A stretch of DNA of 43,338 bases, filler included, from Jimgerdemannia flammicorona (Eukaryota): the NCBI GenBank assembly GCA_003990765.1. It is 2 parts of 2 records of this genome, joined end to end, with 100 filler letters (N's around TTAATTAATTAA, not from the genome) between each part and the next. Parts side by side here need not be neighbours in the genome. Positions count along the whole stretch, not along the records: positions 21,724 to 43,338 come from RBNJ01001421.1; 1 more part is not named here. One strand, written 5' to 3'. The notes beneath the pieces were generated by a model. The model saw only the letters and a list, made by a program, of their open reading frames with translations. It ran no database searches and was not told the origin of the DNA. Of the stretch, positions 1 to 38,718 are shown piece by piece; position 1 is the first letter of the stretch; the number at the start of each line of letters is the position of its first letter. The translations under genes were made by a program, and so were the position numbers.

Positions 1-194
1 TGGTTGCTACTACTGCGGTTCCTTGATCCTTCTTTTATATTCTTCAGGATGCTTGTGCTGTGGTCACAATGACTCACAGTTGGTCATCATTGCTCATCTC
101 GTATGCTGTATGATCTTCTTGTGCTTCAATCTGGTGGCTTGCAAGGAAAGGCTGTCTCCTGTGCTGATGTCATCATTCTGGAGTCACCGTTACA
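1..194 (-). mobile_element. 5' end of an LTR of family A (second copy, continuing out of the window to the left)
   Basis: Reverse complement (TGTAACGGTGACTCCAGAATGATGACATCAGCAC...) aligns with the LTR starts at 7639 and 14894. It is preceded on the minus strand by TTAT rather than the PPT, so it is a 5' or solo LTR. Confidence 0.92.
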
Positions 195-411
195 ATAACT
201 AAGTTCTTTCTGGTGGTAGGGAGAGCATAGTATGTAGAATGAGATATAGACTACTATAGGCCCTGCTGTGCCTAGCATAGTTGAGCTACTAGATAATAAC
301 TAGTCTAGGTTTAATAGAGAGATAGTGCTCAATAAGTGGTGAGGAAGAGTTTTGGCCTATATAGTCTAGGTTTCCTTCTAATAAAAATCTGTAGGACTCT
401 GAGTCTATAAA

Positions 412-11826: not shown

Positions 11827-13351
11827 GAAAAAGGAGCCTATACTACTACCAAGATTACTGAACTTGAGCACAAGAAAGACAGGGACCAGAATAAGCACAC
11901 ATATACCATTAGAGAAAACTTTTCCCTGGAAGAACAACTTCTCAAGATCCTGCACCAGATTGAAGGAGTACTTGCTACAGACTTCAGGGATATCCACAAT
12001 CAAGAACCCAAGTACTACCATGAAGTTGACACTGGTGATACCAAGCCCATCTACCAGAAGGCCAGACCCATACCACCCACCTATAGAGAATGGCTGTGAG
12101 CAGAACTCAAGGAAATGGAAGAAGCCAGAATCATCAAGCAAGCTATTAGTCTCTGGGCTTCACCCATTATCCTCACTCCAAAGAAAGGAAGCAAGTCTAG
12201 AGAGTTTGCACCAAGACTCTGCATTGACTATAGGAAGCTCAATGCCATCACCAAAAAGGATAGGCAGCCCTTGCCAAATATTCAAGAAATCCTTACCACT
12301 CTTAGAAGTGAAGCCAAATACTACACCACCTTGGATCTGTTCTCAGGCTTCCATCAGATTGGTCTCACTCAAGATGCTAGTGAGAAATCAGCCTTCATCA
12401 TACCTGATACCATCTATATCTACCTGAGAATGCCATTTGGAATGTACAATACCCCAGCAAGTTTTCAGTGAATTATGAACAGAGTCTTTAGCAACAAGAT
12501 TGAAAAATGGCTCTTCATCTATGTTGATGATGTAATCATCTTCAGCAACACTGTATAGGAATATGTCAACTACATATAGCTAGCCCTCAAGAAGCTCAAG
12601 GAGCATAGCCTCTACATCAAGCCTAAGAAATATAAGTTTGCAGGCTCAGGAAATAACCTACCTAGGACATCTCATTAACCAGACTGGAATCCACACAGAC
12701 CCCATAAAGATTGAGACTGTTGTAGTCTACCTGAGACCCAGAACAACCACAGAAGTCTATGTCTTCCTTGGACTGGCCAGCTATTATAGAAGATTCATCA
12801 AAGGATACTCCAACATTGCAGCACCTATCTACAAGCTACTGAAGAAGGAAACCAAATTCAAATGGACTAAGAAATGCCAAGAAACCTTCAATAAACTCAA
12901 GACCAGATTGACCCAAGTACCTATCCTCAGAAGACCAGATTGGAACCTAGAATTCATCCTGCAGACAGATGCAAGTGCTATAGGACTTGGAGCAGTCCTA
13001 GCTCAGAAGAAAGATGGACATGAATATGTCATCCCCTATGCAAGCTAAGGTACCCACAGAGCAGAACAGAACTATGAGTCATGTAAGCTCAAATGCTTAG
13101 CAGTAGTTTGAGCAGTAGACAAGTTCCACTACTACCTAGTTAGGAAATACTTCACTGTTCAAACAGACCATTCTGCTCTTGTCTAGCTATTCCACACTCT
13201 AAACCCCAAAGAAATATATATCAGATAGATCTACAGGCTGCAAGAGTATGACTGTACTATCAAATACTGCTCAGGAAGAACCAATACCAATGCTGATGCC
13301 CTCTTAAGGATACCCTGAAATACCCCCATCAAGACTATTCAACATGAATAA
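11827..13351 (+). pseudogene. pol: Element A reverse transcriptase - RNase H
   Basis: SLWASPIIL, RLCIDYRKLN, LDLFSGFHQI, RMPFG, YVDD (12520-12531), YLGH, FILQTDASAIGLGAVL, TDHSAL, NADAL. Contains stops and one +1 indel near 12644. Confidence 0.95.
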
Positions 13352-16729: not shown

Positions 16730-18598
16730 ATGGCGACTCAAGACTCATCGAGCTCAGAGTGCCTAGAGAGGAGGAGGCCTGGCTTGGGCCTCCCCAAGAG
16801 TTTTGCGGCGGCAGCTGGTCAAGGTGGAGCGGGAGGGCAGGCTGGAGGTCAAGGACTGGCAGCAGGACTGGATGGTTGGCACATGGTGATAGGAAATAAG
16901 TGGGCGACCTCTAGGCCTACAATTGTAGGGCAGCAGGGGCATAGTGTTGACAGGGGTGGACGTCAGGTGACTGGTCAGCTAACTGGCCAGGGCCCCAGCA
17001 GGGGTCAGGGGTCTCGGGGCGTGATGACGGGGACTGGCTTTCCTGGGGCTGGGCTGGTGGCTGGGGGTAGGACTGCTGGTGGCACAGTAGCCCCTGGCGA
17101 GACAGTAGTGGGCATTTCTAGCAGCAAGAACAAGGCAACCCTGGCAGCAGGAATGGGGGAGCTGGTGGTACGACCTTTTTTCCATAAGTCAGTATCGTCG
17201 TGGGCAGTCTCCGCCAACTTTTTGGGCCTTGGTCTGTCGGCCAAGGAAGTTCTATGACTGGTGGGTGAGGAGGTTGCAGGAGCTGAGTCGCTGAGGTTTA
17301 TCCCCTCAGCCGAGGCAGTGGAGGTCGGGTTCATTAAGGAGGAGGCTATAGTGAAGGCCCTGGAGAAAGGGTTGATGGTCAAGAATGTTAAGGTGGGGAT
17401 GGCAAGGTACTTGAGGTGGGACCCATGTGCAGTGAGGTTGGTGGTGGAAGGTCTGCCAACACTGAGCAGGCAGGAGACTAAGATGGTGGTAGCAAAGGCT
17501 CTGGAAGGATTTGGCGAGATGGTGGATTTTGGATTTATGTTTTGGGAGGGCACTAAGTTGAGGAATGGCAACTGTGAGGCGATGGTGTGGCTGGAGGGAA
17601 AGGAGGCAACAGGTCTGGGGCAAGACTGGCCAGAGGTCATTCGTGTTGGGGAGCAGGACTGCCGGGTCTGGAGGAGGAAAGGCTCTGAGCAGGAAGAGGA
17701 GGAGCTGCTGATAGCCCTCGAGGAGCGTGATGAGGCAAAGGCTATGCGGAAAAGGAAGTGGGAGGAATTTGCTAAGAATTGGATCTGGATCGAAACAGAT
17801 GGCAAGAGGAAGCATTGGCATAGAGCGAACTGGGAGCGGCTGCAGGCAGTGCTGAGAGCATCTGAGGAGGAGGAGGTGGAAAGGGTAGCGTCGGACAGGA
17901 ATCGAATGGAAGGGGTGGAGGCAGCGGAGGTGTCCTTCTCGCAGTTGGGGGGAGTGGAAGAATCCGTGCATGCACCGGTGACAGGGAAGTGGGCAGATGG
18001 TGAGGAAGAGCGAGGAGAAGGGTTCGAAGAAATTGTAGAGGTGGTTCCCGAAACTCCAATGGAAGACACAGTGATGGCTAGGTCGGCAAATGTGCACTGG
18101 GAATGTCCAGAAGCAGGGGAGGTGGTGAGGTTGGAAAAGGTCTCTGAAGAGGATGAGCTGGTGGATGTCGCTTCAGATGTTTCTGCGGACAGGGAGCTGC
18201 TTCAGGAACTTTGCCGGACTCCCAGGCCTGCAACTCCGGGGCCAATGGCAATGGTGGCAGATGGTTGGTTCCAGGCAGTTCTGGAGGAACTGACGGAGGA
18301 TGACATTAAGGAAGTGGATGTGTTTCAGGGCTCTCCGGAGGCGTGGGAAGGATTTCTCAAGGTGGCGATGCAGGGACTGAAGCTGGTGACTGCAATGGTG
18401 GCGGCCCTGCTGGAGGATGAAGGGTACGAGGTGGATGAGGACCGAATGGCAGATATCTGTAAGGTTGCGTCGGAGCGAGTGGACTTCTTCTGTGGCAGTG
18501 TCAATGGCGAAAGAATTTGGCGAGCAGTCTGTGAGGAGCGTCGAGACATCATTAAGGGCCGAGCTGAGAAGGTGGCGGCAGTGGCGGCGGATATCTAA
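16730..18598 (+). pseudogene. LINE ORF1 (about 620 aa; RRM-like core, acidic coiled C-terminal half), one premature TGA
   Basis: ORFs 16730-17257 and 17261-18598 share a frame. SFAAAA N-terminal motif and VRLVVEGLP...ALEGFGEMVD...GTKLRNG...PEVIRVG are typical of L1/Tx1 ORF1. Confidence 0.8.
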
Positions 18599-18613
18599 AC
18601 TCCAAAATTTTTC

Positions 18614-21600
18614 ATGATGAAGTACAACCTACGTATTCTGTCCATTAATGTCAATGGTTTGTGAGATAGTGTGAAGCGGCGGCGTCTCTTTCGATGGTTG
18701 AAGGTTTGGAGGTATGATGTGGTATTTCTTCAAGATATTCGGGCCTATGGGGAGGAGGACTATGAGGAGTGGAGTCGGGAATGGTTTGGGAACACAGGCT
18801 GGAGTAAGCAAGTTGGTATTCTGGTTGGAGTTGGGAAGGGGGAGTTAGTTGATGTAGAATGCTTTGGGGATCGTCTGGTGTGGGGAAGGCTGAAGGGAGG
18901 GAAAGGAGATGGGCTTTTGGTGGGCTCGGTATATCTGCCAGCAGTTGGCAGAGAGTGAAAGCAATGGGTGGAGGAGTGGATGGCCTGGGAGGATTGGGTG
19001 GCTCTAGGGTTAGACATTTTGGGGGGTGACTTTAATATGATTAGGGACCATGCACTGGATCGGTCTGATGGCAGGGCTGGGGTAGCGGTTTCTCCTGGGC
19101 TGTCTCAGTGGCTTCAGGTGGAGAGGGGCATGGGATTGGTAGATGGGGTACGTTCGAGGGTGGGAGACAGGTTAGGGCCCTTTACCAGGTGGTACTCTAT
19201 AGACAATGGGATGGTCGGTACGCGGATTGACTGGGTGTTGGTAGCTGAACATTGGGGTAATGTATTTGATAGGGTCGGTGTACAGTGGTGCCCATGGTCA
19301 GACCATTGGGGAGTGGAGGTGAGTGGGAGATTCCAGGCTGTTAATAGAGGAGGGGGGCGCTGGCGTCTCAATGTGGCACTGCTCCGGCGTCTGGTGGAAC
19401 GGGAGCAATTTGTATACATGGCCCGACAGGAAGTAGAGCATTGGGTGGCTGGGGGTCTATCTATTGTGGATTGGTGGGGCAGATTCAAACACCTTGCTGG
19501 TGCTTATTGGAGAGACACTGGGGAAGTGGCTGGAAAGGAGCAAATGGACAGGGAGAGGAGAGTTGACAGGGGATTGCGGTGGCGGCTGAAACTATTGGAG
19601 GATGGTTCACTAGCAGAAGAGAGGAAGGGACAACTTGCTAGAGAGGTAGTCGACCTACAGGCAATCTTGAGAGAGGCTGAGGATCGAGTTATGGATGGGC
19701 TCCTGGTGCGCCTAAGGGCTAGACGACTGGAAGAGGGTGAAAGACCAACTAAGTACTTATCTGGTGTCTTGAAGGCGAGGAATGTTAGACATAGCTGGTC
19801 TTCAGTTTTGCAAGAAGATGGTGTCGAGGTTACCAGTGTAGCAGATATGTTGGAGGAGATCTCAGGACAATGGCAGACTCTTTGGAGTGATGATGATATG
19901 GGTGGAGGTGTTGGAGTAGAGGAGGTTGCCGAGGCTCCTCTAGTACATAACTGGCCGGTGGTGTCACAACTGGAGATTGGAGCATCAGTGTTTGGCAGAG
20001 TGTCTTTAGAGGAGATATTGGAGGTTCTGCAGAAGGTACCGAGCGGTTCCTCACCAGGGGAGAATGGCCTCCCTTGGGAATTCTGGAAGGAGTTTAAGGT
20101 GGAATTTGGAGCTTGGCTTGTTGAAATGGTTAATTTCATACTAGAGGAAGGACAGTGGATTGGGAATAGTAGTTTAGGTCTGGTGTCTTTGTTGTATAAG
20201 GAGAAAGGTGACAGGAGGGAGTGGTGCAACTGGCGGCCGATCATGCTGCTAAACGTCGACAGGAAGCTAGTCTCGAAAATCTTGGTAGGGAGGTTGCAGC
20301 AGTGGATTGGAAGATTGGTAGGGGAGGAACAGAGGGGCTTTGTGAAGGGCCGGCAGATCAGGGACAGTACTGCCTGGGTGCAAAACGTTTTGGAGGGCTG
20401 TAGAAGTAGGCAGATTGATGGGAGGATGGTCTTTTTGGATCAAGAGAAGGCCTATGACAGGGTACGGTGGTGTTACCTAGAAGCAATTCTCCAGAAAGTC
20501 GGCTTTAAGCTGGAAGAGGTTAGATGGTTGATCTGATGAATGGCTGGAGCGGCCCAGAGTTTTCTTTAGGAAGAGGGGTTCCACAAGGGGACCCACTTTC
20601 GCCGCTTCTTTATATCCTCTCACTAGAACCGGTGCTGGCATGGCTGAGAGAAAGGCTGAATGGACTGCATATAGGTGAGGTGGTTTGGAAGCTGGGGGCC
20701 TTTACTGACGACATAGTGGTAGGGCTTGGTAGCATCGAGGACATGGACATTTTGCGAGAAGGAATCGAACAGTATGAAGGGTTGGCGGGGGCAAAGTTGA
20801 ATTGGGGGAAGTGTGAAACCTTAGAGCTTGGTGCAGGCTTAGGGGTAGCAGGGCTTGGACGAGTGGTGCCTAAGGAGGAGGCAGTCAGATACTTAGGGAT
20901 ATGGTTTTCGGTGTTTGGGACAGTTCTGCCAAAGGAGTGGTGGAGTTCTATGGTACAAAAATGGGAAGGGGTGTTGACAGGCTGGGCTGGTCAAAACTTT
21001 TCTCTAGTAGGAAGAGTGGTGGTTCTGAATGTATACTGGCTGCCAAAGCTGTGGTACTTGGGTTACCATCTAGATTTTCCTGGTTGGGTGGTGCGGCGTC
21101 TCAAGAAGGCTATGGAAGGGTGGCTCTGGAAGGGTAGGCGACCGCAGATTGGATGGGATGCATTGGTGCTGCCGATTGCTGATGGTGGTTTGGGGTTGGT
21201 GGACTTTCGGCAAAGGTTGAAGGCACTGCGGGGATGGTGGGGTCGCCGACTTGTGGAGCTAGGGGAAGCGAACTGGGGCAGATTAGCAATGGACAATTGG
21301 GAGATTAGGTTCTGCCCCCAGAGTGCGGAGAGGAAGGATTTGCGAGGGCTACTTCAGATCGGATCTGTGGGGAGGATGCGGTTCAAAGGGTTCTGGTGGG
21401 GCATCGTTGAGGCCTGGCTTATGATGGGCCTGACAGGGCCAGAGGTAGAGGTGATAGAGGAGGGGGCAGACCCTGAGCAGCGGTGGTGGCGACTCAAATT
21501 ACTTAGGGTGGGAGGGAAGGAGCTGAAGGATTATTCTCTGGTTGAGGCGATGGAATGGGCCAGATCAGGCCCTCTTGAGCGGTGGCCAGTAGGATGGCAG

Positions 21601-21623
21601 ACAGCTGGTATCGGCGAGATGTG
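18614..21623 (+). pseudogene. LINE ORF2: APE endonuclease plus reverse transcriptase
   Basis: LRILSINVNGL, DVVFLQD, SVYLP, GGDFN, RIDWVL, SDH (APE); SSPGENGLP, NWRPIMLLN, EQRGFVKGR, LDQEKAYDRV, GVPQGDPLSPLLY, AFTDD, RYLGI (RT). TGA stops at 18659 and 18956, and a deletion/frameshift near 20530. Confidence 0.95.
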
Positions 21624-21723
21624 NNNNNNNNNNNNNNNNNNNNNNNNNNNNNNNNNNNNNNNNNNNNTTAATTAATTAANNNNNNNNNNNNNNNNNNNNN
21701 NNNNNNNNNNNNNNNNNNNNNNN
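21624..21723. other. Artificial assembly spacer (44 N + TTAATTAATTAA + 44 N)
   Basis: Symmetric 100-nt spacer with a stop-in-six-frames 12-mer, a known contig-concatenation linker style. Confidence 0.95.
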
Positions 21724-22326: not shown

Positions 22327-23602
22327 TGTGACAAACCAAATATATCACCCAAATTATATCTTAACCAGATGACATAAACAATTAGCCAAGATGATGTGAA
22401 CATACAGTATAGTAACTAGTAACCATTGCTGCAGAAAACTGTATAAATAGCCAGACATACCAGAAAGGGTCTGTTTACCTGTACAGACTCTGTACACCTG
22501 CTATAAGTAGCAGATCTATAGTTAGCCACATAGTAATCAGATAGCAACCAACTTGTATAAATTACCCCAGAGACAAGAGTGAATAAACCTCAGTCCGAAA
22601 TACAAATACCAAAGAAACCTCTAAAGATTGAGCATTGGTCCCCTTTCTACTCCAGTCCACTTTCTGATACAAAGCCTGAAGATTTGCTGCCCAAGTTCGA
22701 GTGAAGAACTTCACTATCTTTTGAAGAGAAACCCGCTGCTTAAGGAATAAGCCACAATATTGGTTTGCTTGCCAGATAAGCCTGAAGATTTCTGCCTAAG
22801 AGAAAGCCACCTTGCTCAAGCCAGTTTCTGACACAACTTCGCAGTAATTCATTGTGCAAACGAAGCCAGTCTTTAATATAACTTTGCCAAGAGACCCTTT
22901 CCATGCCATCATATTCCCAGAAGAGCCTACCAATTCAGGAAGAATCTGTGACATCCGCCATTTCTAAGTTATCTACCACATTCCCAGTTGAAGCCAATTC
23001 AGGAAGAATCTGTGCACCCAAGTATTATTCCCAGAGAGCCCAAGTTATCTGCGATATCTGAGTTATTCGTTATTCTCAGTGAGCCTAAGAAGAATCCACC
23101 GCCAGCATTATTCCCAATTATTCGAATTATCTACACCATCTGAGTTATTATTCCCAGAAAAAGAATCCATGTCATACAATTCCCAGTGAGCCAAATCGAG
23201 TTATCTACCAAATTATCAGGATGTCCGCATAAGGAACCCATCATGCTATACAGAGATTGTCACATCAAGATTGTTGCACTACACAGAGATCATCGCACCA
23301 AAGCCATCACCCAGAAATTGCATACTTTTGGAAATTGTCTTGCTATACAAAATTGTAGCATTCTCAGTTGACCCAAGAAGGAAACCTGTTCACATACACA
23401 AATTGCGCTACACCCAAGAACCTGTCCCAAAAAGGAAACTGCTCGCACAGAATCCAGATCTTGACTATTATACCACTAAACACTAAGGACCTCAGGAATC
23501 TTAGAATATTTTATTGCTTTTTGACAAAGTAACTGGGGGCTCAAGCCAAACTATATCAACTCCCAACCTTGTAATTTGCCTCCATTGAGCTGGCACATTA
23601 CA
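22327..23602 (+). repeat. Element B 5' LTR (1276 bp)
   Basis: TGTGACAAACC...CACATTACA; TATAAA at about 22442 and 22556, AATAAA at about 22582. Confidence 0.95.
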
Positions 23603-23635: not shown

Positions 23636-26600
23636 ATGTGACTTTTTAGCTCACAAGAACCCACAGTCAAACTGGATACATTTGACACAACACCAACCTC
23701 TGCTACTACAGGAGAACCAGTCATCACTAGCATTTGGACAGGAAGAGAAGTAATCACATCAAAACTTGCCAACTACTCAGCATCAGAAGGATCCCAACCA
23801 GAAGCAGGAGGCAGTATAGTCCGAAATCCCCAACCAGATCAACCAGACAATACAGGCAGCCCTGTTAGAGATTTTGAAGAACTTGTACAAGAACTAGAAG
23901 ATCTTATCACACAAACCTGAGACCTTACAGCCAGATGCCCCACACCAGCCCTACTAATTTCACCAATAGAACCTTTACCACAACCCCTTGCAGAATTGGA
24001 AGTAGCTCCTACAAGAATACCTAGGCTTATTCCACTTCGTCCAAGATCCAGAACACCATTCTCAAGATACCCAAGTATGCCTGTCTCTAGTGACAGCTCC
24101 AAAAGTAAATCAGAATCAGAATCTGAACTTGAACCTGAATCAGAAGAAAGTGATGATGAAATGGCCACCTCATTGCCAACCTTTGCAGGATACCCAGAAT
24201 AAGACTCCAGAGAATTCCTTGATGGAATTGAAGGAATTGCAGCCTTGAGGAATCTCTCAGATGAAAGAAAAATTGCCATCTACAAGGCTCAGCTCAGAGA
24301 ACCAACCAGAGGAATTTTCCAACAAACAGCAAACAACCCAGATTCAGAACTGGCAAGACAGATACAAGCAGCAATGTCTTATGAGCTAGAATATGAGGCC
24401 ATGGTCCACTGGCTCATTGAAAAGTATGCAGGAAATGAAACCCATCACAAGGCTCAGGAATCCATCATGGGGATGAAGATGAATCTTGGAGAATCACCCA
24501 GAGTCTTCTTCACAAGAATCCAGAAGAGAATGCATTCTGCCGGGTTCAATGCCACCAACCAGGACATCATAGGTCTAATGACCTTCATGAATGGAATTCC
24601 CCCGAATATTGCCCAGTATGTCTGAAACCTAGGCATCAGAAGGTCTAAAGAGCAAGTAGATGCAGCTCAAGGATTCTTTGATGTCAGACAAGGAACTACC
24701 TGGAGTGATCATGACAAAAAGGAAGATATAGAAGACATCCTGGTCAAAGCCCTACAAGGACTTCTTCAAGGACAAGAAAGATCTGAAGAAAGAAGGCCAG
24801 TCAAGGAAGGAAAGAAGGATAGAAGTGAAATCCAAGACCTCAGCTCCAAGTTGAACTGATTGGTTGGACAAATTGAAAAACTCACTATATGTAAAAACTG
24901 GAGCTACCAAGATAATAGAGGATACCCACCACAGAGGAGCCAAGGTTATCCACTAAGAGATAACAGGAATTACCAGCAAGAAGAAAGAAGGTACTCTGTC
25001 TGACACAGAGCCCAAGTCCAATGCTTCCACTGTGGATAATTTGGACACTATACTACTGAGTGTGACAACAAAAGAAGTGACTGAAGGGACTCAGAACCAC
25101 CAAACCGAAGGAATGACACTCAGTACAAGAAGACTGAAGTCTATCCTGTTGAAGATTTCGAAGAAGCAAGCAACAGTGAAGACTACAGCGACCTAGACTT
25201 GTACCCCACTAAGGTTACAACCTGGAAAACAGTCTACCCGGCAGAGAAGAGGAAGAGACCAGTAGGAAGGCCATCCAGGAACATCAGCAGAAGAATTATC
25301 CAAGAGGAGGAGGAAGAACATGAAGAGGAACAGGTAGAAACATCTCTCTGAACCCCCTCACCTTTTGTTCCCAAGACAAACGAGTTACCACCAGAGGATG
25401 AAGAAATGGAACAAAAAGAACGAGAACCTGCTGTCCCAAAGCCCAAGAAAAAGTACACCCCAAAGACCATACCTAGAGACATCTACAATGAAGCTTGGCA
25501 GAAGATCCAAGAGGCCAAGATGGAAGTTCCCCTCCTGCAGTTCTTGCAATTGACACCAGCTGGAGTCCGAAACAAATTACTGAGAACCACCAGGTCTAGT
25601 ACTGACTGAGTCCCAATCCCACAGCAAGAACTAGTTCCCATCTCTGTTCAGGCATGTCAGCACCTACCTATGTGGGGATATTGGAGGACAAAAAGCGAAG
25701 ATTCTCATAGACACAGGAGCAGCTATCTGTATCATTGCTAAATGATTCCTAGACACCCTTCAATGGCCCATTGATGGACCATCCAACCTCAGCATCATAG
25801 TAGCAGATGGAGCCCGAACTCAACTCCTTGGAGAAGTACGAAATATCACCATCTCTCTTGGACACATTCAGTTCTCCATCCCCAAAGCTGTTGTCACTGA
25901 GGCTGTTACCTATGACATGATTCTTGGTACCAACTGGATGAAGGAAACAAATGCAGTTGTTGATATTGGCCAATAAGTACTCAAGATTGACTACCGAGGC
26001 AAGAAGTACAGAGTTAAGGTGACCAGCTATGAGCAATCAAAGAAGAAGAAGAAGATCACTATTCAGGAAGAGTATTCCAGTAGTGAAGAATCCACCACAG
26101 AAGAAGAGGAAGAATCCGAAGATGGAAATGATCCCAGACTCAATCCCCGAATTAACCTGGTGGATGACTGACCAGAAGATAATGTGTGGGCCAAGAACAC
26201 TAACCCTATTACCATTGGAGCTATTGCAGGAGAAGCCAAAGGATGGCCTATATGCCTCAAGAGACACAAGTGTCCCAAGTACTCCTCCAAGATCATGGGA
26301 ACAAGGAAATTGCCTGGCATAGCCTGCCCAGAGTGCAGAAGGAAGAAGACGAAATACAGATATGTTCCAGAAACACCTGCAATCAAAGCTACAGAAGTAC
26401 AAGCAATTTGGGGTCAAGAATCATCTGAGGAAGAAGAAACTTCTGACCAAGAAGTTCCTGAACAAGAAGCACCTTAAGAAGAAGAGATTCCAGAACTCAT
26501 TCCCTGAGATGACTCTTGCTGGATACTACCTGAAGACAATGACCCTTGGAATACAGAAGAAGGACCCAGTACAATCACCATTATCCCCAAGAAAGAAACT

Positions 26601-28145
26601 CACCAAGAAAAGGCTTTTTGGCTAGGAAGATGTCTACACCAAATGGTCTCCCACTCTCCCCAAGACTACTGCTATCAGTGTCACCTATTGGATCAACAGG
26701 AAAGGCAGAGACCCCAGAGACCAGAACCTCCAACTATACTTGCACAGTCTACCACCTTTCAAGAAGTCACTACAAAGTTACAAAGTCGATTTAGGGGACA
26801 AGGCTTCTTCACCTGAACAGAAATATACCCCTTATCTACCCTTCCCCCAACTTATGATCAAAATGGATACCAATTCCCAAGACAACAAGAGATAAATAGC
26901 CAGGAACATCATTTTCGAGCAATGGGATATTGCAACCATGGGAGACTCCCTAACTGCCGAGACTGCAGACACCAGAAGATTCACCTCAGTCATGATGTTG
27001 CAGTGCACACTTTGAAGAAAGGAGATAACTAAAGCCAGATCCGAAAAAGCTGGAAAAGCCAGACCAAGAAGCCAGGAAGAAGAATCCTCAAGATCTACAA
27101 TTTGGAAGAAGACATCCTAGCTCTCATTAGACATGCAACCCACCAAGGATGGGCAGAAGATGCTGCCAACTTCATGGAAGCCCTAGACCCTATAGAAAGA
27201 AGGGGAATTAACTACCTCCGAGACCCCTCTACTGGAGCCAGATGGCCACACCTCAACCTTAGAGCCTGGAGGCTTTCCACTAGTGGAGCTTCAGCCTTAG
27301 GAAAGCCTGAACTCAGCAAGGATATTGCCCAGTATGCCCTGCTGCACCCTAAGGCCAAACCCCCGACCAAAGCCCACCCAGAGGATGTAGGATATGATCT
27401 TCACAGCCTGGAGGATGAATCTAACAAGCCTGGAAAAACCTTCATGGTCAGAACTGGATTAGCCATGCAGCCACCCCAAGGAGCTTATATTCAACTGACC
27501 TCAAGGTCTGGACTTGCCAGATAAGGGATAACTGTAGAAGGAGGAATCATTGACCCTGAATATACAGGCGAAATCAAGGTTATCCTATACAACAGTAGTG
27601 CAGAATGGCACCAAATCATTAGAGGACAGAAGATTGCCCAAGCAGTCTTCATGAAGGTCAAGACCCCACAGTTACAGGAAGCCCCTGAACTAACTGAAGA
27701 AACAAGACAGGCCAAGAGATTTGGAAGTTCAGACAGGAAGGAGGTGCATCTCCTTCAAGTCAATCACCTCAAGAGGAATGTTCCCCAGCAAGTGTACTGG
27801 CAACCAGTCAGACTGCACAAGAATCTCATCCTAGAGCCCAGAGAACAAACTACCTTCAAAATCTTTGCACCACCCGATCCCAGAAACCTTTTCTTTGAAC
27901 CCAAGGAAGATATCCCATACCTGGACATAGAGGGACACACATTTCCTGACAAGATGAACCCAGTACACTCCCGAGCAACCAACCAAAGTTGGGAAACCAT
28001 CATCTTGCCAAAAGGAACCATCATAGGACATCTGGTGCCTTTTCTCAACCAAACTCATAGGGAAGTTTATGAACTAAACCTCTTGGGAAATGGCAACAGA
28101 TCCCAGAAGAAAGGAAAGGCCCCTCTGCGACCCAGGAGACAGTGA
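23636..28145 (+). pseudogene. gag: Element B ORF1: Gag (CCHC) - protease - Cys/His modules - dUTPase - dUTPase-like domain
   Basis: LPTFAGYPE.DSREFLDG capsid region, CFHCG*FGHYTTEC knuckle (25022), ILIDTGA (DTG at 25710). Single frame once an 11-nt deletion near 25652 (sequence present in copy C) is restored; ends PLRPRRQ* in B and PLRLRRQ* in C. Confidence 0.88.
27330..27731 (+). pseudogene. dut: Element B dUTPase domain
   Basis: LLHPKAKPPTKAHPEDVGYDL...RSGLAR*GITVEGGIIDPEYTGEIKVIL...GQKIAQ...RQAKRFGSS. Confidence 0.92.
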
Positions 28146-29557
28146 AGCCTTAAACCAACATTCGAGAAGAATTGACACTCCAACAACAGCAACAACTAGT
28201 AGAACTTTTCAACAAATATCAAGATATCTTCACTACTGATTATGGCAACCTCCCATACAATCCATCATACCACTATAGCATAAATACAGGAAATGCAACA
28301 CCCATCTGGCAGAAACCCTATAGAATACCTCATCATATAAAAATATTTGAAAAAGAGCACATCCAAGAACTCTTAGACAATGGAGTCATCTGACCCTCTA
28401 CCAGCCCCTGGGCTAGCCCTATACTTATTGTACCAAATAAAGGAGGATGGAGACTCTGCATAGATTACAGGAAACTCAATTCAGTTACTGAAAAGGATGC
28501 CTATCCTTTGCCCAGAATTGATGACCTCTTGGATCAGTTACAAGATGCCAGATACTTCAGCAGTATGGACCTCTTCGCAGGATTCCATGAGATCTCCATG
28601 GACCCCAAGGACATTTAAAAGACAGCCTTCCTTGCTCTAGGGAAACTGTTTGAATACCTCTGAATGCCCTTTGGACTTTGCAATGCACCCCCCACCTTTC
28701 AGAGGATGATGAATTCAGTCTATGCTCCCTTGATCCACCACTGCCTGATTGTATACATGGACAATTCCAACATCTATTCAGCAAATTTTGAAGAACACCT
28801 GCACCACCTAGAGGAATTCTTCAAGCTTACTCACAAAAACCACTTGAGGCTAAATGCAAAGAAATGCTATTTTGGAAAACAGAAACTTGAATTCCTTGAA
28901 TTCATAGTTTCGAAAGAAGGAACTCTTGCAGATCCAAAGAAAACTGAGAAGATCAACAATTGGCCAGTACCCAAAACCCCAAAGGAGACACTATCATTTC
29001 TGATGCTAGTATCCTACTACAGAAGGTTTATCAAGAACTTTGCTCAAATTGCTGCCCTAATCCGGATCCTTCTCAAGAAAGGAGTGCTATTCAAATGGAC
29101 AGAATTACAAGGAAAAGCCTTCAAAGAACTCAAAAACTGCATGACTATAGCACTAATCCTCATGCACCCCAATCTACAGAAGCCATTCATCTTATATACA
29201 GATGTTTCTAAAGATGGCCTTGGAGCAGTTCTAACTCAAGAAGGACCCAATCAACAGCACCATGTGATAGCTTATGCAAGCAGAGCTACCAATCAGCAGC
29301 AGATGAACTATGGTAGCACCAAACTGGAATGCCTTGCAGTCATATGGGTGGTCACTCTGTTCAAGTATTACCTCATCAGAAAAAGGTTCACGCTGATCAC
29401 AGACCATGCAGCCCTCAAATGGTTATTCAACTACAAGGAACCCACCAGAATCCTAGCCCACTGGATCCTTATCCTTTAAGATTACAAAATCACCATTATC
29501 CACAAAGCAGGGAAAGCTCACAACAATGTTGATGTACTTTCCCACCAACCCCAATGA
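28085..29557 (+). pseudogene. pol: Element B RT - RNase H ORF (-1 frame relative to ORF1)
   Basis: SPWASP, WRLCIDYRKLN, MDLFAGFHEI, MPFGLCNAPPTFQR, YMDN (decayed YMDD), FILYTDVSKDGLGAVL, TDHAAL, NVDVLSH; ends at TGA 29555-29557. Confidence 0.95.
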
Positions 29558-30621
29558 ACCAGAAGAAGGGTGTCCCGAGGAACTACACCCTAAAGGAAGC
29601 TTCTCAGACCATCAAGGCACAAGAAGATCTCATCCATAAAGAACATCAGAAAGCCCATCAAGGACAGACAAGTACAGAAGATAAGATTCGAAAACTATAT
29701 CAACACTGGCCTCACCTCAGAACTCAAGTCTGAGACATCATCCAGAAATGTGACACTTGCCAGAAGTACCAAGAAAAGAAGAACTATCAAGCCCCTTTGC
29801 AACCGATTCCCCCACCCACTCACATCTTTCAGAGATGGGTAGTAGATGTAATTGGACCTCTACCAGTTACACCAAGAAGAAACAAATACATTCTTGTATT
29901 TGTGGAACATCTGACCAAGTGGCCCAAGGCTTTCCCAATGGAAATCGCAGATGCCTTAACCATTGTAGGCCTCCTCCATGGACTCACACTCAGAGATGGA
30001 CCCCCAGAAGAACTCATATCTGACTGAGGCATGGAATTCATCAACAACATAATTACAAGTTATGCCTGAATTCACAAGATCCACCTCAAAAGGACCACAT
30101 CATACTACCCCCAGACCAATGGCATGACAGAGAAAATGAACCAGACTATCAAGAAAGGACTTGCCTGAGTCAATCCTACTAATTGGGACCTCTGCTTACC
30201 TGAGATCCTATGGGAAATTCGGAACACGCTTGCCACCTCCACCAAACAAAAGTTATTCAAAATGATGTTTGCCAAAAGAACCAGAACTACTGACCATGAG
30301 AATCTTGGAGACCTCCTCAAGAAGGCAGAACAGTTACATAATCAAGCCTGAGGACAGATTATCAAAGCCCAAGAAAGACAAAAGAAGTACTATAACCAAA
30401 AACAGAAGGATCAGAAGATCAAGATTGGAGATCAAGTACTAGTTTGGAGAAGCATAATTGAAATGAATTTTGCTGCCAAACTGGAACCCAAATAGGAAGG
30501 ACCTTATTTTGTACACAATATCAAAGGAACCAGTATCTATTTAAGAAGTATGGATGGACGAACCCTGAGAACACCAGTATACATCAATCACCTCAAACTG
30601 TATCTCCCCTCTACACTATGA
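29554..30621 (+). pseudogene. Element B integrase as a separate ORF
   Basis: ATG overlaps the RH stop (ATGA). HQKAHQG...CDTCQK (HHCC), VDVIGPLP, LISD*GMEF, YYPQTNGMTE, K*EGPY; ends at TGA 30619-30621. Confidence 0.92.
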
Positions 30622-31052
30622 GCCAAAGGATTGATCAGCACCTCCAGACATTGGTCCTCAGCTCCTTCTAAGCCTTACCAGTCCCTCTACCCCAATTTGG
30701 CCAAGCTAATGGAAGCCCCCTTCTGAGGATCCAAGCTCATCAAGAAAATCTCACCTTGATCAGATGCCTACTACAAGTCCACCAACTGCAGGCCTATTAT
30801 GCAATCAGTGAACAATTGCAGAACCTCCCAGCCCCAGAGCAGACCTACATCAGGAACACCACAGGTCTGACCAGAAGAGACACTACTGCCACAGACAGAC
30901 TATATACCATTTACAAACGAAATGTCACAGCCCTGACACAGGCACAATTATCCCTGAATGACATTCAAGGAATGAACCCTATTACCTATTTGAGCATCAT
31001 CAACTCTGTCGAAATCCTATTCCCTGAAGAAGAAGAAGAGCCCATAGAATAG
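30618..31052 (+). pseudogene. Element B accessory ORF3 (144 codons, unknown function)
   Basis: ATG overlaps the IN stop (ATGA). The single premature TAA at 30669 is CAA in copy C, and the frame is conserved in C. Confidence 0.82.
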
Positions 31053-31160
31053 AGTGACCCTAGTATGGACAATAAAGATGATAGAACAGGTATAGATGCA
31101 GAAGTAGCCTATGCTTATTGAGATGGCAACTGAAGAATAGTCTGGGACAGACTACCCTTC

Positions 31161-31172: not shown

Positions 31173-32504
31173 TGTGATAAACCAAATGTATCATCCGAAT
31201 TATATCTTAACCAGATGACATGAACAATTAGCCAAGATGACATGAATATACAGTATAGTAATCAGCAACCATTGCTGTGGAAAACTGTATAAATAGCCAG
31301 ATATACCAGAAAGGGTCTGTTTACCTGTATAGACTCTGTACACCATACAGACTCTGTACAATGTATAGGTCCTGTACACCATACAGACTCTGTATATCTG
31401 CCATAAGTAGCAGATCTATAGTTAGCCACATAGTAACCAGATAGTAACCAACTTGTATAAATTACCCCATAGACAAGAGTGAATAAACCTCAGTCTGAAA
31501 TACAAATACCAAAGAAGCCTCTAAAGATTGAGCATTGGTCCCCTTTCTACTCCGGTCCACTTTCTGATACAAAGCCTCAAGATTTGCCACTCAAGTTCAA
31601 GTGAAGAACTTCACTGCCTTTTGAAGAGAAACCCACTGCTTAAGGAATAAGCCATGATATTGGTTTGCTTACCAGATAAGCCTGAAGATTTCCACCTAAG
31701 AGAAAGCTGCCTTGCTTAAGCCAGTTTCTGATGCAACTTCACAGTGATTCATTGTACAAACAAAGCCAGTCTTTAATGTAACTTTGCCAAGAGACCCTTT
31801 CTGCGCCATTGTATTCTCAGAAGAGCCCACCGATTTAGGAAGAATCTGCATCATCCACCATTTCTAAGTTATCTGCCACATTCTCAGTTGAAGCCAATTC
31901 AGAAAGAATCCACGCCACCTGAGTATTATTTCCAGAGAGCCCAAGTTATCCATGACATCCGAGTTATTCATTATTCCCAGTGAGCCTAAGAAGAATCTGC
32001 TGCCAGCATTATTCCCAGTTATTTGAATTATCTGCACTATTCGAGTTATTATTCTCAGAAGAAGAATCCATGCCATACAATTCCCAGTGAGCCAAATCGA
32101 GGTATCCACTGAATTATCAGGATGTCTGCATAAGAAACCTGTCACACTACACAGAGATCGTTGCATCAAGATCATCATGCTACACAGAAATTGTCACACC
32201 AAAGCCATCACCCAGAAATCACATACTTTTGGAAAATGCCTCGCTACACAAAATTGTGGCATTCCCAGTTGACCCAAGAAGGAAACCCATTCATATATAC
32301 AAATTGCCACTACACCCAAGAACCTGTCTCAAAAAGGAAACCACTTATACAGTATCTAGATCTTGACTATTATACCACTAAACACCAAGGACCTCAGGAA
32401 TCTTAGAACATTTTGTTGCTTTTTGACAAAGTAACTGGAGGCTTAAGCCAAACTACATCAACCCCCAATCTTGTAATTTGCCTCCATTGAGCCAGCACGT
32501 TACA
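31173..32504 (+). repeat. Element B 3' LTR (1332 bp)
   Basis: TGTGATAAACC...CACGTTACA followed by ATAT; contains four 18-bp units at about 31326-31398 versus one in the 5' LTR. Confidence 0.95.
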
Positions 32505-37258: not shown

Positions 37259-38718
37259 TGAGATTGATAGGAAAGTATATCAATATTGTTGTGAGCTTTC
37301 CCTGCTTTGTAGGTGATAATCCTGAAGAATAAGGATCCAGCAGACTAGGATTCTGGTAGGTTCTTTATGGTTGAATAGCCATTTGAGGGCTATATGGTCA
37401 GTTATCAGGTTGAATCTTTTTCCAATTAGGTAATACTTCAACAGAGCAACTGCCCATATGACTGCAAGGCATTCCAATTTAGTGCTGTTATAGTTCATCT
37501 GCTGCTGATTAGTAGCTTGGCTTATATAAGCTATTATATAGTGTAGTTGGTCAGGTTCTTCTTGGGCTAGAACCTCTCCAAGGCCATCTTTAAAGGCATC
37601 TGTATATAAGATAAATGGCTTCTGTAGATTGGGGCAGACAAGAATTGATACTGTGGTCATGTGGTGCTTGAGTTCCTTAAAGGCTAGTTCTTGTGATTCT
37701 GTCTATTTATAAGGTACTCCTTTCTTGAGAAGGATTTGAATTGAAGCAGCATTTTGGGCAAAATCCTTGATAAACCTTCTGTAGTAGGATACTAGCATCA
37801 GGAAGGATAGTGTTTTCTTCAGGGTCTTGGATATTGGCCAATTGTTGATCTTCTCAGTTTTCTTTGAGTTTGTATGAGTTCCTTCTTTTGAAACTATGAA
37901 TCCAAAGAATTCAAGTTTCTGTTTCCCAAAGTAGCATTTCTTGGTATTGAGTCTCAGGTATTCTTAAGGATAAGCTTAAAGAATTCCTCAAGATAGTGCA
38001 GGTGTACTTTGAAATTTACTGAATAGATGTTGGAATCATTCATATATATGTACAACCAGACAGTAATGGATCAAGGGGAAATAGACTGAATTCATCATTC
38101 TCTAGAATGTGGGAGGTACATTGCAAAGTCCAAAGAGTATCTAGAGGTATTCAAACAGTATTCCTAGATCAAGGAAGGTTGTCTTCTGAATGTCATTGGG
38201 ATCCATGGAGATCTCATAGAATTCTGTGAAAAGGTCCATACTGCTGAAGTATCTAGCATCTTGTAACTGGTCCAAGAGGTCATCAATTCTGGGCAAAGGA
38301 TAGATATCCTTTTTGATTACTGAATTGAGTTTCTGTAGTCTATGCAGAGTCTCCATCCTCCTTTCTTTGGTACAATAAGTAAAGGGCTGGCCCAAGGGCT
38401 TATAGAGGGTCAGATGACTCCATTGTCTAAGAGTTCTTGAATGTGCTCCTTTTTGAATGTCTTTAGGTGATAAGGTATTCTATAGGGTTTCTGTCAGATG
38501 GGTGTTGCATTTTCTGTATTTATACTGTGGTGATATGATGGGTTATATGGCAGGTTGCCATAGTCTGTAGTGAAGATATCTTGATATTTGTTGAGGAGTA
38601 CAACTAGTTGTTGCTGTTGCTGGGGTGTCAATTCTTCTCCAATGTTGGTGGAAGGCTTCACTGTCTCCTGAGTCGCAGAGGGACCTTTCCTTTCTTCTGG
38701 GACCTTTTGCTGTTTCCC
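37255..38718 (-). pseudogene. pol: Element C RT - RNase H
   Basis: KLNSVIKKDIYPLPRIDDLLDQL, MDLF, FILYTDAFKDGLG, TDHIAL; many stops and indels. Confidence 0.9.

What the first reader, a model, noticed from the sequence alone, without database searches (positions are those of the whole stretch)
28085..28145. Reconstructable -1 frameshift signal G GGA AAC placed after the dUTPase domains, just before RT
Seen: B and C both end ORF1 at the same stop (...PLRxRRQ*) and RT is in the -1 frame. In the overlap B reads G GGA AAT GGC and C reads G GGA AAC AGC (38718-38712), the two alternative CpG-decay products of G GGA AAC GGC, correctly phased as X XXY YYZ. A few nt downstream, GGTC-C-CAGAAG...CCTCTG-C-GACC can form a hairpin that improves if decay is reversed. 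Established: GGGAAAC is a classic -1 slippery site. Inference: PR, the Cys/His modules and dUTPase are made at Gag stoichiometry and only RT-RH is down-regulated, unlike the usual gag/PR boundary.
Basis: partly seen in the sequence, partly recalled or inferred. Interest (0 to 1): 0.72.

Follow-up and report, generated by a model that had tools for sequence, protein, structure and literature searches.

The report
Retrotransposon frameshift placed after protease, dUTPase
A decayed Gypsy-type jumping gene keeps its protease and dUTPase in the same reading frame as the capsid protein and most likely reaches reverse transcriptase through a standard one-base ribosome slip: a known mechanism at an uncommon place.

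Summary
In 65 of 65 distinct genomic copies ORF1 stops at 28143 with RT in the -1 frame; 47 of 65 carry a phased G GGA AAY, 25 of them G GGA AAC as they stand. A near-intact metagenome relative (L110) has the same stop and heptamer and an open 494-codon RT-RNase H frame. Gag, protease, Cys/His modules and dUTPase share one frame in 18-21 long copies. No RT-frame AUG lies before the RT core. The stimulator is better read as an H-type pseudoknot than as the hairpin alone (L110: 0 of 150 shuffles score as well), but no compensatory pairs were seen and frameshifting itself is untested. 'Only RT-RH is down-regulated' is doubtful: integrase is a separate ORF whose AUG overlaps the RT-RH stop (32 of 38), so it may depend on the shift too. 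Gag-protease ahead of a regulated RT is known (RSV/ASLV, Ogre); I found no description for a fungal dUTPase Gypsy. This scan noted the same site and the split integrase before, on other DNA.

The parts
22327..23602 (+). 5' LTR of element B (approximate ends)
   Evidence: direct repeats D2, D5, D6, D8 at about 8.9 kb spacing, 85-93% alike
23642..28145 (+). ORF1 of B: Gag with CX2CX4HX4C knuckle, protease, Cys/His modules, dUTPase, second domain; broken in this copy by private stops and an 11-nt deletion near 25650
   Evidence: no stop shared by 80% or more of 18-21 copies between 23642 and 28142; stop at 28143 in 21 of 21; translation
25680..25975 (+). aspartic protease, DTG motif
   Evidence: translation; C-terminal part matches aspartyl protease families weakly, E 0.004-0.03, below cut-off
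27355..27735 (+). dUTPase domain (split by a private stop in B)
   Evidence: Pfam PF00692, E 9.3e-7 and 1.5e-13 for the two pieces
27736..28084 (+). second conserved domain, coding in the ORF1 frame; dUTPase-like fold not tested here
   Evidence: third-position excess; no Pfam match (copy C); Atlas neighbours 0.95-0.96 are unnamed eukaryotic clusters, recognition value below the threshold
28085..28091 (+). slippery heptamer, phased X XXY YYZ (G GGA AAU in B)
   Evidence: 47 of 65 copies G GGA AAY, core GGAAA in 62 of 65; G GGA AAC in L110
28099..28153 (+). candidate H-type pseudoknot 7 nt behind the heptamer: stem 1 28099-28107/28124-28132 with one mismatch, stem 2 28113-28120/28147-28153 with one bulge
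   Evidence: each pair possible in 62-65 of 65 copies; stem score against shuffles; tile control
28143..28145 (+). ORF1 stop, in loop 3 of the candidate pseudoknot
   Evidence: TGA 63, TAA 2 of 65; TAA in L110
28073..29557 (+). ORF2: RT and RNase H in the -1 frame, closed upstream at 28070 and ending at its own stop 29555
   Evidence: stop 28070 in 64 of 65; stop 29555 in 38 of 38; Pfam RVT_1, RT_RNaseH
29554..30621 (+). ORF3: integrase, again -1, AUG overlapping the ORF2 stop (AUGA)
   Evidence: ATGA in 32 of 38 copies, integrase frame closed at 29530 in 37 of 38; same in L110; Pfam rve, Integrase_H2C2
30622..31133 (+). ORF4 of unknown function after integrase (approximate ends)
   Evidence: third-position excess in a further frame; related open frame in L110 3699-4100; no convincing Pfam match
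31173..32504 (+). 3' LTR of element B (approximate ends)
38712..38718 (-). heptamer G GGA AAC of copy C
38650..38704 (-). candidate pseudoknot and ORF1 stop (38660-38658) of copy C

Best explanation
B and C are dead copies of a Ty3/Gypsy family with over a thousand candidate matches in this genome. When active, ribosomes read one long ORF1 (Gag, protease, Cys/His modules, dUTPase, second domain; about 1,500 codons) and most stopped at 28143. A minority slipped back one base on G GGA AAC, paused by a pseudoknot 7 nt downstream, and went on into RT-RNase H, stopping at 29555. So protease and dUTPase come with every Gag, RT only with the shifted fraction. Integrase is made separately, most likely by restart at the AUG overlapping the RT-RH stop, so it would also depend on the shift. 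Shown: frames, stops, heptamer, selection in both frames, absence of an RT-frame AUG. Inferred: the slip, the pseudoknot, the protein ratios, the restart.
For: Frame offset identical in 65 of 65 copies over 28000-28200 and in L110, whose RT-RH and integrase frames are fully open. Three database proteins at 76% (whole query) and 83-85% (region) identity end at the same place with Gly-Asn at the slip site. Variation peaks at third positions of ORF1 before the overlap (0.071 against 0.021 and 0.011) and of the RT frame after it (0.056 against 0.017 and 0.018), and is low at all positions inside it; L110 differs from the copies at 33 of 101 third positions before, 24 of 92 after, and 3 of 64 columns within overlap plus pseudoknot. 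First common RT-frame ATG is at 28565 (40 of 45), inside RT. G_GGA_AAC is among the most shift-prone heptamers on mammalian ribosomes (PMC5009743, passage); pseudoknots lie 5-8 nt behind such sites (PMC12789967, passage). Stem score: as good in 0 of 150 shuffles for L110, 0 and 2 of 150 for two genomic copies; only 2 of 668 other tiles of L110 score as well.
Against: No translation or reporter data. No pair of either stem shows a change on both sides (0 of 65); changes fall 21 in 29 paired and 31 in 30 unpaired columns, a weak difference. The low divergence of the overlap (0.055) equals what double coding alone predicts (about 0.06), so it does not prove an RNA structure. For B and C the stem score is matched by 11 and 5 of 150 shuffles and plain folding is unremarkable. 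The score is my own rough stacking sum without loop terms. Rfam gives nothing significant (best placed match Ma3 frameshift signal, E 4.2, 13.9 bits against a cut-off of 35). Copies were the best matches to B, C or L110, not a random draw. Only one independent relative with DNA was found.
Confidence: 0.82

Rival explanations
1. Ogre-like partial splicing: an intron that removes the ORF1 stop joins Gag-PR-dUTPase to RT in a subset of transcripts.
For: [quoted passage not shown] 14 frame-compatible GT..AG pairs of 83-446 nt are shared by the copies and L110.
Against: None of the 7 donors fits the GTRAGT consensus (recalled; letters); ORFs overlap instead of being separated by a 170-270 nt spacer; the only phased heptamer sits in the overlap with a stem 7 nt behind it.
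Confidence: 0.08
2. The shift is real but is stimulated by the stem-1 hairpin alone, or by no structure.
For: Stem 1 alone scores -14.9 in L110, matched by 2 of 150 shuffles; no covariation supports stem 2.
Against: Stem 2 pairs in 62-65 of 65 copies and in L110, one pair varies G-C/G-U between B and C, and both stems together beat all 150 shuffles in L110.
Confidence: 0.3
3. A disabling indel in a non-autonomous master copy was spread by RT supplied in trans; the heptamer is chance.
For: Sister dUTPase families in this genome keep dUTPase and RT in one frame: family A (29 of 30 copies lack A's private break) and a third family (12 of 16 loci with both domains).
Against: RT frame is under purifying selection among copies and against L110; the same stop recurs in L110 and three database proteins; L110's RT-RH is fully open.
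Confidence: 0.04
4. RT is made by restart or internal initiation after the ORF1 stop, as proposed for integrase.
For: The element seems to use a stop-start overlap one junction further on.
Against: No RT-frame ATG near 28143: 1 of 51 at 28127, 12 of 47 at 28460, first common one at 28565, which would cut off the RT N-terminal part.
Confidence: 0.03

Closest known systems
Alpharetroviruses RSV/ASLV
   Same: Protease is part of Gag (Gag-Pro; PMC12789967, passage) and one -1 shift leads into RT (shift recalled).
   Different: No dUTPase; integrase is part of Pol; enveloped retrovirus; different heptamer (recalled).
Betaretroviruses MMTV, MPMV, SRV-1
   Same: dUTPase and protease lie before a -1 pro-pol shift into RT; heptamer plus pseudoknot (PMC12789967, passages). 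That SRV-1 uses G GGA AAC is recalled.
   Different: They have a second shift between gag and pro, so protease is below Gag level; here none. Order there is dUTPase before protease.
Plant Ogre and other two-ORF groups with GAG-PROT as first ORF
   Same: Ty3/Gypsy with GAG-PROT made in excess of RT (PMC6317226, passage).
   Different: Ogre uses a partly spliced intron of about 274 bp; integrase stays fused to RT-RH.
dUTPase-bearing Ty3/Gypsy elements: PosPlaTy3-5, Tmt1, Phanerochaete elements, rotifer Juno/Vesta/TelKA
   Same: dUTPase between PR and RT (PMC2864245, passages; PMC5408684, passages).
   Different: There dUTPase is described inside pol, with the break, where present, at gag-pol; no shift behind dUTPase is mentioned in the passages I saw.
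PEG10 and PNMA3/Ma3 (Ty3/Gypsy-derived mammalian genes)
   Same: -1 shift at a classical heptamer with an H-type pseudoknot (PMC5009743, passages).
   Different: Shift lies at the gag/protease-side boundary (recalled); domesticated genes; Rfam match not significant.

Membership tests
Ty3/Gypsy LTR retrotransposon (Metaviridae) | Two LTRs flanking the coding region | tested here: met
   B: repeats 85-93% alike at about 8.9 kb spacing
Ty3/Gypsy LTR retrotransposon (Metaviridae) | Order Gag, PR, RT, RNase H, integrase | tested here: met
   (protease matches below cut-off, DTG motif seen)
Ty3/Gypsy LTR retrotransposon (Metaviridae) | Integrase made as part of the Pol polyprotein (usual, not strictly defining) | tested here: not met
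   RT-RH stop in 38 of 38 copies, integrase in another frame; same in L110
Ty3/Gypsy LTR retrotransposon (Metaviridae) | RT falls in the Gypsy clade of a tree | not tested
   no tree built; nearest representatives are 32-50% identical RT-RH proteins
Canonical -1 programmed frameshift site | Overlapping ORFs, second in the -1 frame without its own start | tested here: met
Canonical -1 programmed frameshift site | Phased X XXY YYZ heptamer in the overlap | tested here: met
   47 of 65 copies and L110
Canonical -1 programmed frameshift site | Stimulatory structure 5-9 nt downstream | tested here: inconclusive
   beats shuffles in L110 and two copies, marginal in B and C; no covariation; plain folding of B and C not significant
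Canonical -1 programmed frameshift site | Measured -1 product that depends on heptamer and structure | not testable with these tools
   needs a reporter or proteomics
Known Rfam frameshift elements | Score at or above the gathering cut-off | tested here: not met
   RF01093 13.9 bits against 35, E 4.2
Ogre-type spliced GAG-PROT / RT junction | ORFs separated by a spliceable spacer | tested here: not met
   ORFs overlap by 70 nt; splicing itself could not be tested

The most novel reading that the evidence does not exclude
One RNA gives a three-step cascade: every ribosome makes Gag-protease-dUTPase, a fraction slips -1 to add RT-RNase H, and only those that did can restart at the AUGA overlap, behind a long hairpin, to make a free integrase that has no Gag tether and must enter particles by binding. 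The two best-scoring two-stem structures in 4.1 kb of L110 lie at exactly these two junctions.
Probability: 0.45. Interest if true: 0.72.

Novelty: new variant of a known kind. Interest (0 to 1): 0.45.

Why it matters
It shows that within one genome dUTPase-bearing Gypsy families differ in where, and whether, they throttle their enzymes: two families keep dUTPase and RT in one frame, this one puts a -1 switch directly before RT, the layout of alpharetroviruses reached in a retrotransposon. A dUTPase at capsid stoichiometry suggests that many copies per particle are useful, which bears on the open role of retroelement dUTPases (called unclear in PMC2864245). With the separate integrase it gives a compact, testable case of frameshifting and restart acting in series. 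The mechanism itself is textbook, so the gain is for retroelement and recoding specialists.

Tried and rejected
Plain folding of B and C downstream of the heptamer: not significant. Rfam: nothing at cut-off. RNA runs: none was listed, so splicing and expression were not examined. Viral contigs: 7 loci, all short dUTPase matches, not followed. Profile search with RT-RH: the best 150 were mostly long multi-RT proteins; I looked at 4 chosen by eye, which end right after RNase H and have protease and RT in one ORF. No diverged relative with DNA other than L110 was found, so covariation could not be tested; the DNA behind P0001, P0004 and P0005 was not obtainable. Fold of the second domain not predicted; Atlas gave unnamed clusters only. 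A gag/protease frameshift was considered because B changes frame near 25650 and rejected: 17 of 18 other copies have 11 more bases there and 1 has 10. A frameshift before dUTPase in element A was rejected likewise (29 of 30). Gao et al. 2003, the main survey of gag/pol recoding, is not held; I saw only its summary in PMC5009743, so a prior mention there cannot be excluded. PMC5911963 (passages) added nothing. Literature searches that showed no description of this layout, by listing only. Supplements were not read (the structure table of PMC2864245 may bear on novelty).

Full report
Setting. The window holds three decayed LTR elements (A about 7.6-16.5 kb, +; B about 22.3-32.5 kb, +; C about 35.3-43.3 kb, -) and a LINE-like insert at about 17-21.7 kb. 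B and C are 81% alike over the coding region. The genome is a 231-Mb eukaryotic assembly. Named relatives of the element's proteins come from Geosiphon, Rhizophagus and Entrophospora, so an arbuscular-mycorrhizal-type fungus is my inference for the host; it was not established.

Observation. B has G GGA AAT GGC at 28085 and C has G GGA AAC AGC at 38718; both ORF1 frames end PLR(P/L)RRQ*, RT is in the -1 frame. Three searches of the genome (40 scored of about 1,150 candidates each, 30 loci fetched each) and 20 longer stretches gave 103 loci, 65 distinct. All 65 have a stop at 28143 (63 TGA, 2 TAA) and no net indel over 28000-28200. The RT frame is closed at 28070 in 64 and at 28058 in 65, so the frames overlap by 70 nt. 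The heptamer reads GGGAAAC 25, GGGAAAT 22, AGGAAAC 8, AGGAAAT 7, other 3. In the first 51 copies both ends of the heptamer are CpG-decay columns, and no other phased XXXYYYZ occurs in the overlap except one private variant. These copies are best matches, not a random sample.

Both frames were selected. Outside CpG columns, variation among copies is highest at ORF1 third positions before the overlap (0.071 against 0.021, 0.011), at RT third positions after it (0.056 against 0.017, 0.018) and low throughout the overlap (0.010, 0.008, 0.015). The one relative found in metagenome contigs, L110 (1 of 154 pattern matches confirmed), has G GGA AAC in phase at 1322, a TAA at the same place, and open RT-RH (494 codons) and integrase (361 codons) frames, with a single stop inside its dUTPase. 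It differs from the copies at 33 of 101 third positions before and 24 of 92 after the overlap, but at 3 of 64 columns in overlap plus pseudoknot. Three database proteins end at the same place with Gly-Asn at the slip site; P0001 is nearly identical to L110's protein and is not a further independent case.

ORF1 is one frame. In 21 long copies (18 covering gag) no stop is shared by 80% between 23642 and 28142; stops shared by a quarter to a half lie, with one exception (26505), at codons where others read CGA, CAA or CAG. B's gag/protease frame change is its own deletion (17 of 18 others have 11 more bases, 1 has 10). So Gag, protease, the Cys/His modules, dUTPase and a second domain were one polyprotein of about 1,500 residues.

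Stimulator. Its loop can pair with 28147-28153 (stem 2), giving an H-type pseudoknot with the ORF1 stop in loop 3; each pair is possible in 62-65 of 65 copies. With a rough two-stem stacking score, shuffles did as well in 0 of 150 (L110), 0 and 2 of 150 (two copies chosen for an intact heptamer), 5 of 150 (C) and 11 of 150 (B); 2 of 668 other tiles of L110 did as well, both just before the RNase H/integrase junction. Against: plain folding of B and C is unremarkable, no pair changes on both sides, the three L110 differences all fall in unpaired positions but are too few to count, and double coding alone explains the low divergence. I put the pseudoknot at about 0.65 given a shift.

Alternatives. 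No RT-frame ATG lies near the stop; the first common one is at 28565, inside RT, which rules out restart here. Splicing remains formally open (14 frame-compatible GT..AG pairs, none with a consensus-like donor); RNA could not be examined. A propagated lesion is excluded by selection on RT and by L110.

RT-RH ends at its own stop (29555, 38 of 38 copies); integrase lies in the next -1 frame, closed upstream at 29530 (37 of 38), with ATG overlapping the stop in 32 of 38 and no phased heptamer. L110 has the same, with a long hairpin just upstream. Family A has the stop at 13349 (29 of 29) and ATG at 13344 (26 of 29). Of the best 120 of 812 integrase relatives, 111 start with Met and none carries the RNase H end motif; that search was limited to 194-620 residues, so fused forms could not appear. 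Stop-start precedents (calicivirus, HvV190S, SART1) are recalled or taken from earlier notes, not checked in a paper here.

Spread. The shift before RT is particular to this family: family A keeps protease, dUTPase and RT in one frame (29 of 30 copies lack A's own 1-nt break), and so do 12 of 16 loci of a third dUTPase family that showed both domains (30 examined, 4 differ and were not checked). Four RT-RH relatives picked from 150 have protease and RT in one ORF.

Comparison. RSV/ASLV encode protease in Gag; MMTV, MPMV and SRV-1 shift at gag-pro and again at pro-pol with dUTPase upstream (PMC12789967, passages). Some plant groups have GAG-PROT as first ORF, Ogre through an intron (PMC6317226, passages). 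dUTPase between PR and RT is known from Postia, Phanerochaete, Tuber and rotifers (PMC2864245; PMC5408684; passages). -1 shifts at classical heptamers are common in animal LTR elements (PMC5009743, passages). Eight searches (listings only) showed no fungal Gypsy with a -1 site behind dUTPase; the library lacks most subscription papers and the 2003 survey. Earlier notes of this scan describe the same site (e1-7507618, e1-7551060) and the split integrase many times; I had reached both readings before seeing them, and they are not independent support.

Verdict. A real, conserved -1 junction directly before RT; frameshifting likely (0.82), pseudoknot probable, stoichiometry inferred. New variant of a known kind; interest 0.45, up to about 0.7 if the shift-then-restart cascade is shown.

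Noticed in passing
window 29507-29557 (+); L110 2744-2794: Integrase AUG overlaps the RT-RH stop (AUGA, 32 of 38 copies); a long hairpin lies just upstream and gives the best two-stem score in L110.
   Followed up: partly
window 13344-13351 (+): Element A, a different family, also splits integrase off, with ATG five bases before the RT-RH stop (26 and 29 of 29 copies).
   Followed up: partly
window 30622-31133 (+); L110 3699-4100: A fourth ORF after integrase, under codon-type constraint, without a convincing Pfam match.
   Followed up: no
window 26230-27000 (+): Three Cys/His clusters between protease and dUTPase; no Pfam match at cut-off.
   Followed up: no
window 27736-28084 (+): Well conserved second domain after dUTPase; Atlas neighbours are unnamed clusters from rotifers, arthropods and oomycetes.
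   Followed up: partly
window about 17000-21700 (+): G-rich LINE-like element with endonuclease and RT matches between elements A and B.
   Followed up: no
window 21624-about 21723: The genome search places only 1-21623 on one contig, while B and C lie on the next numbered contig, so the window spans an assembly join.
   Followed up: no
window 1-201 and 660-1105: A further LTR end of family A on the minus strand at the window start and a short degenerate repeat array.
   Followed up: no
window 28128-28129 (+): A CpG inside stem 1 is still CG in 45 of 51 copies, against a median of 7% for CpG columns nearby; unexplained.
   Followed up: no
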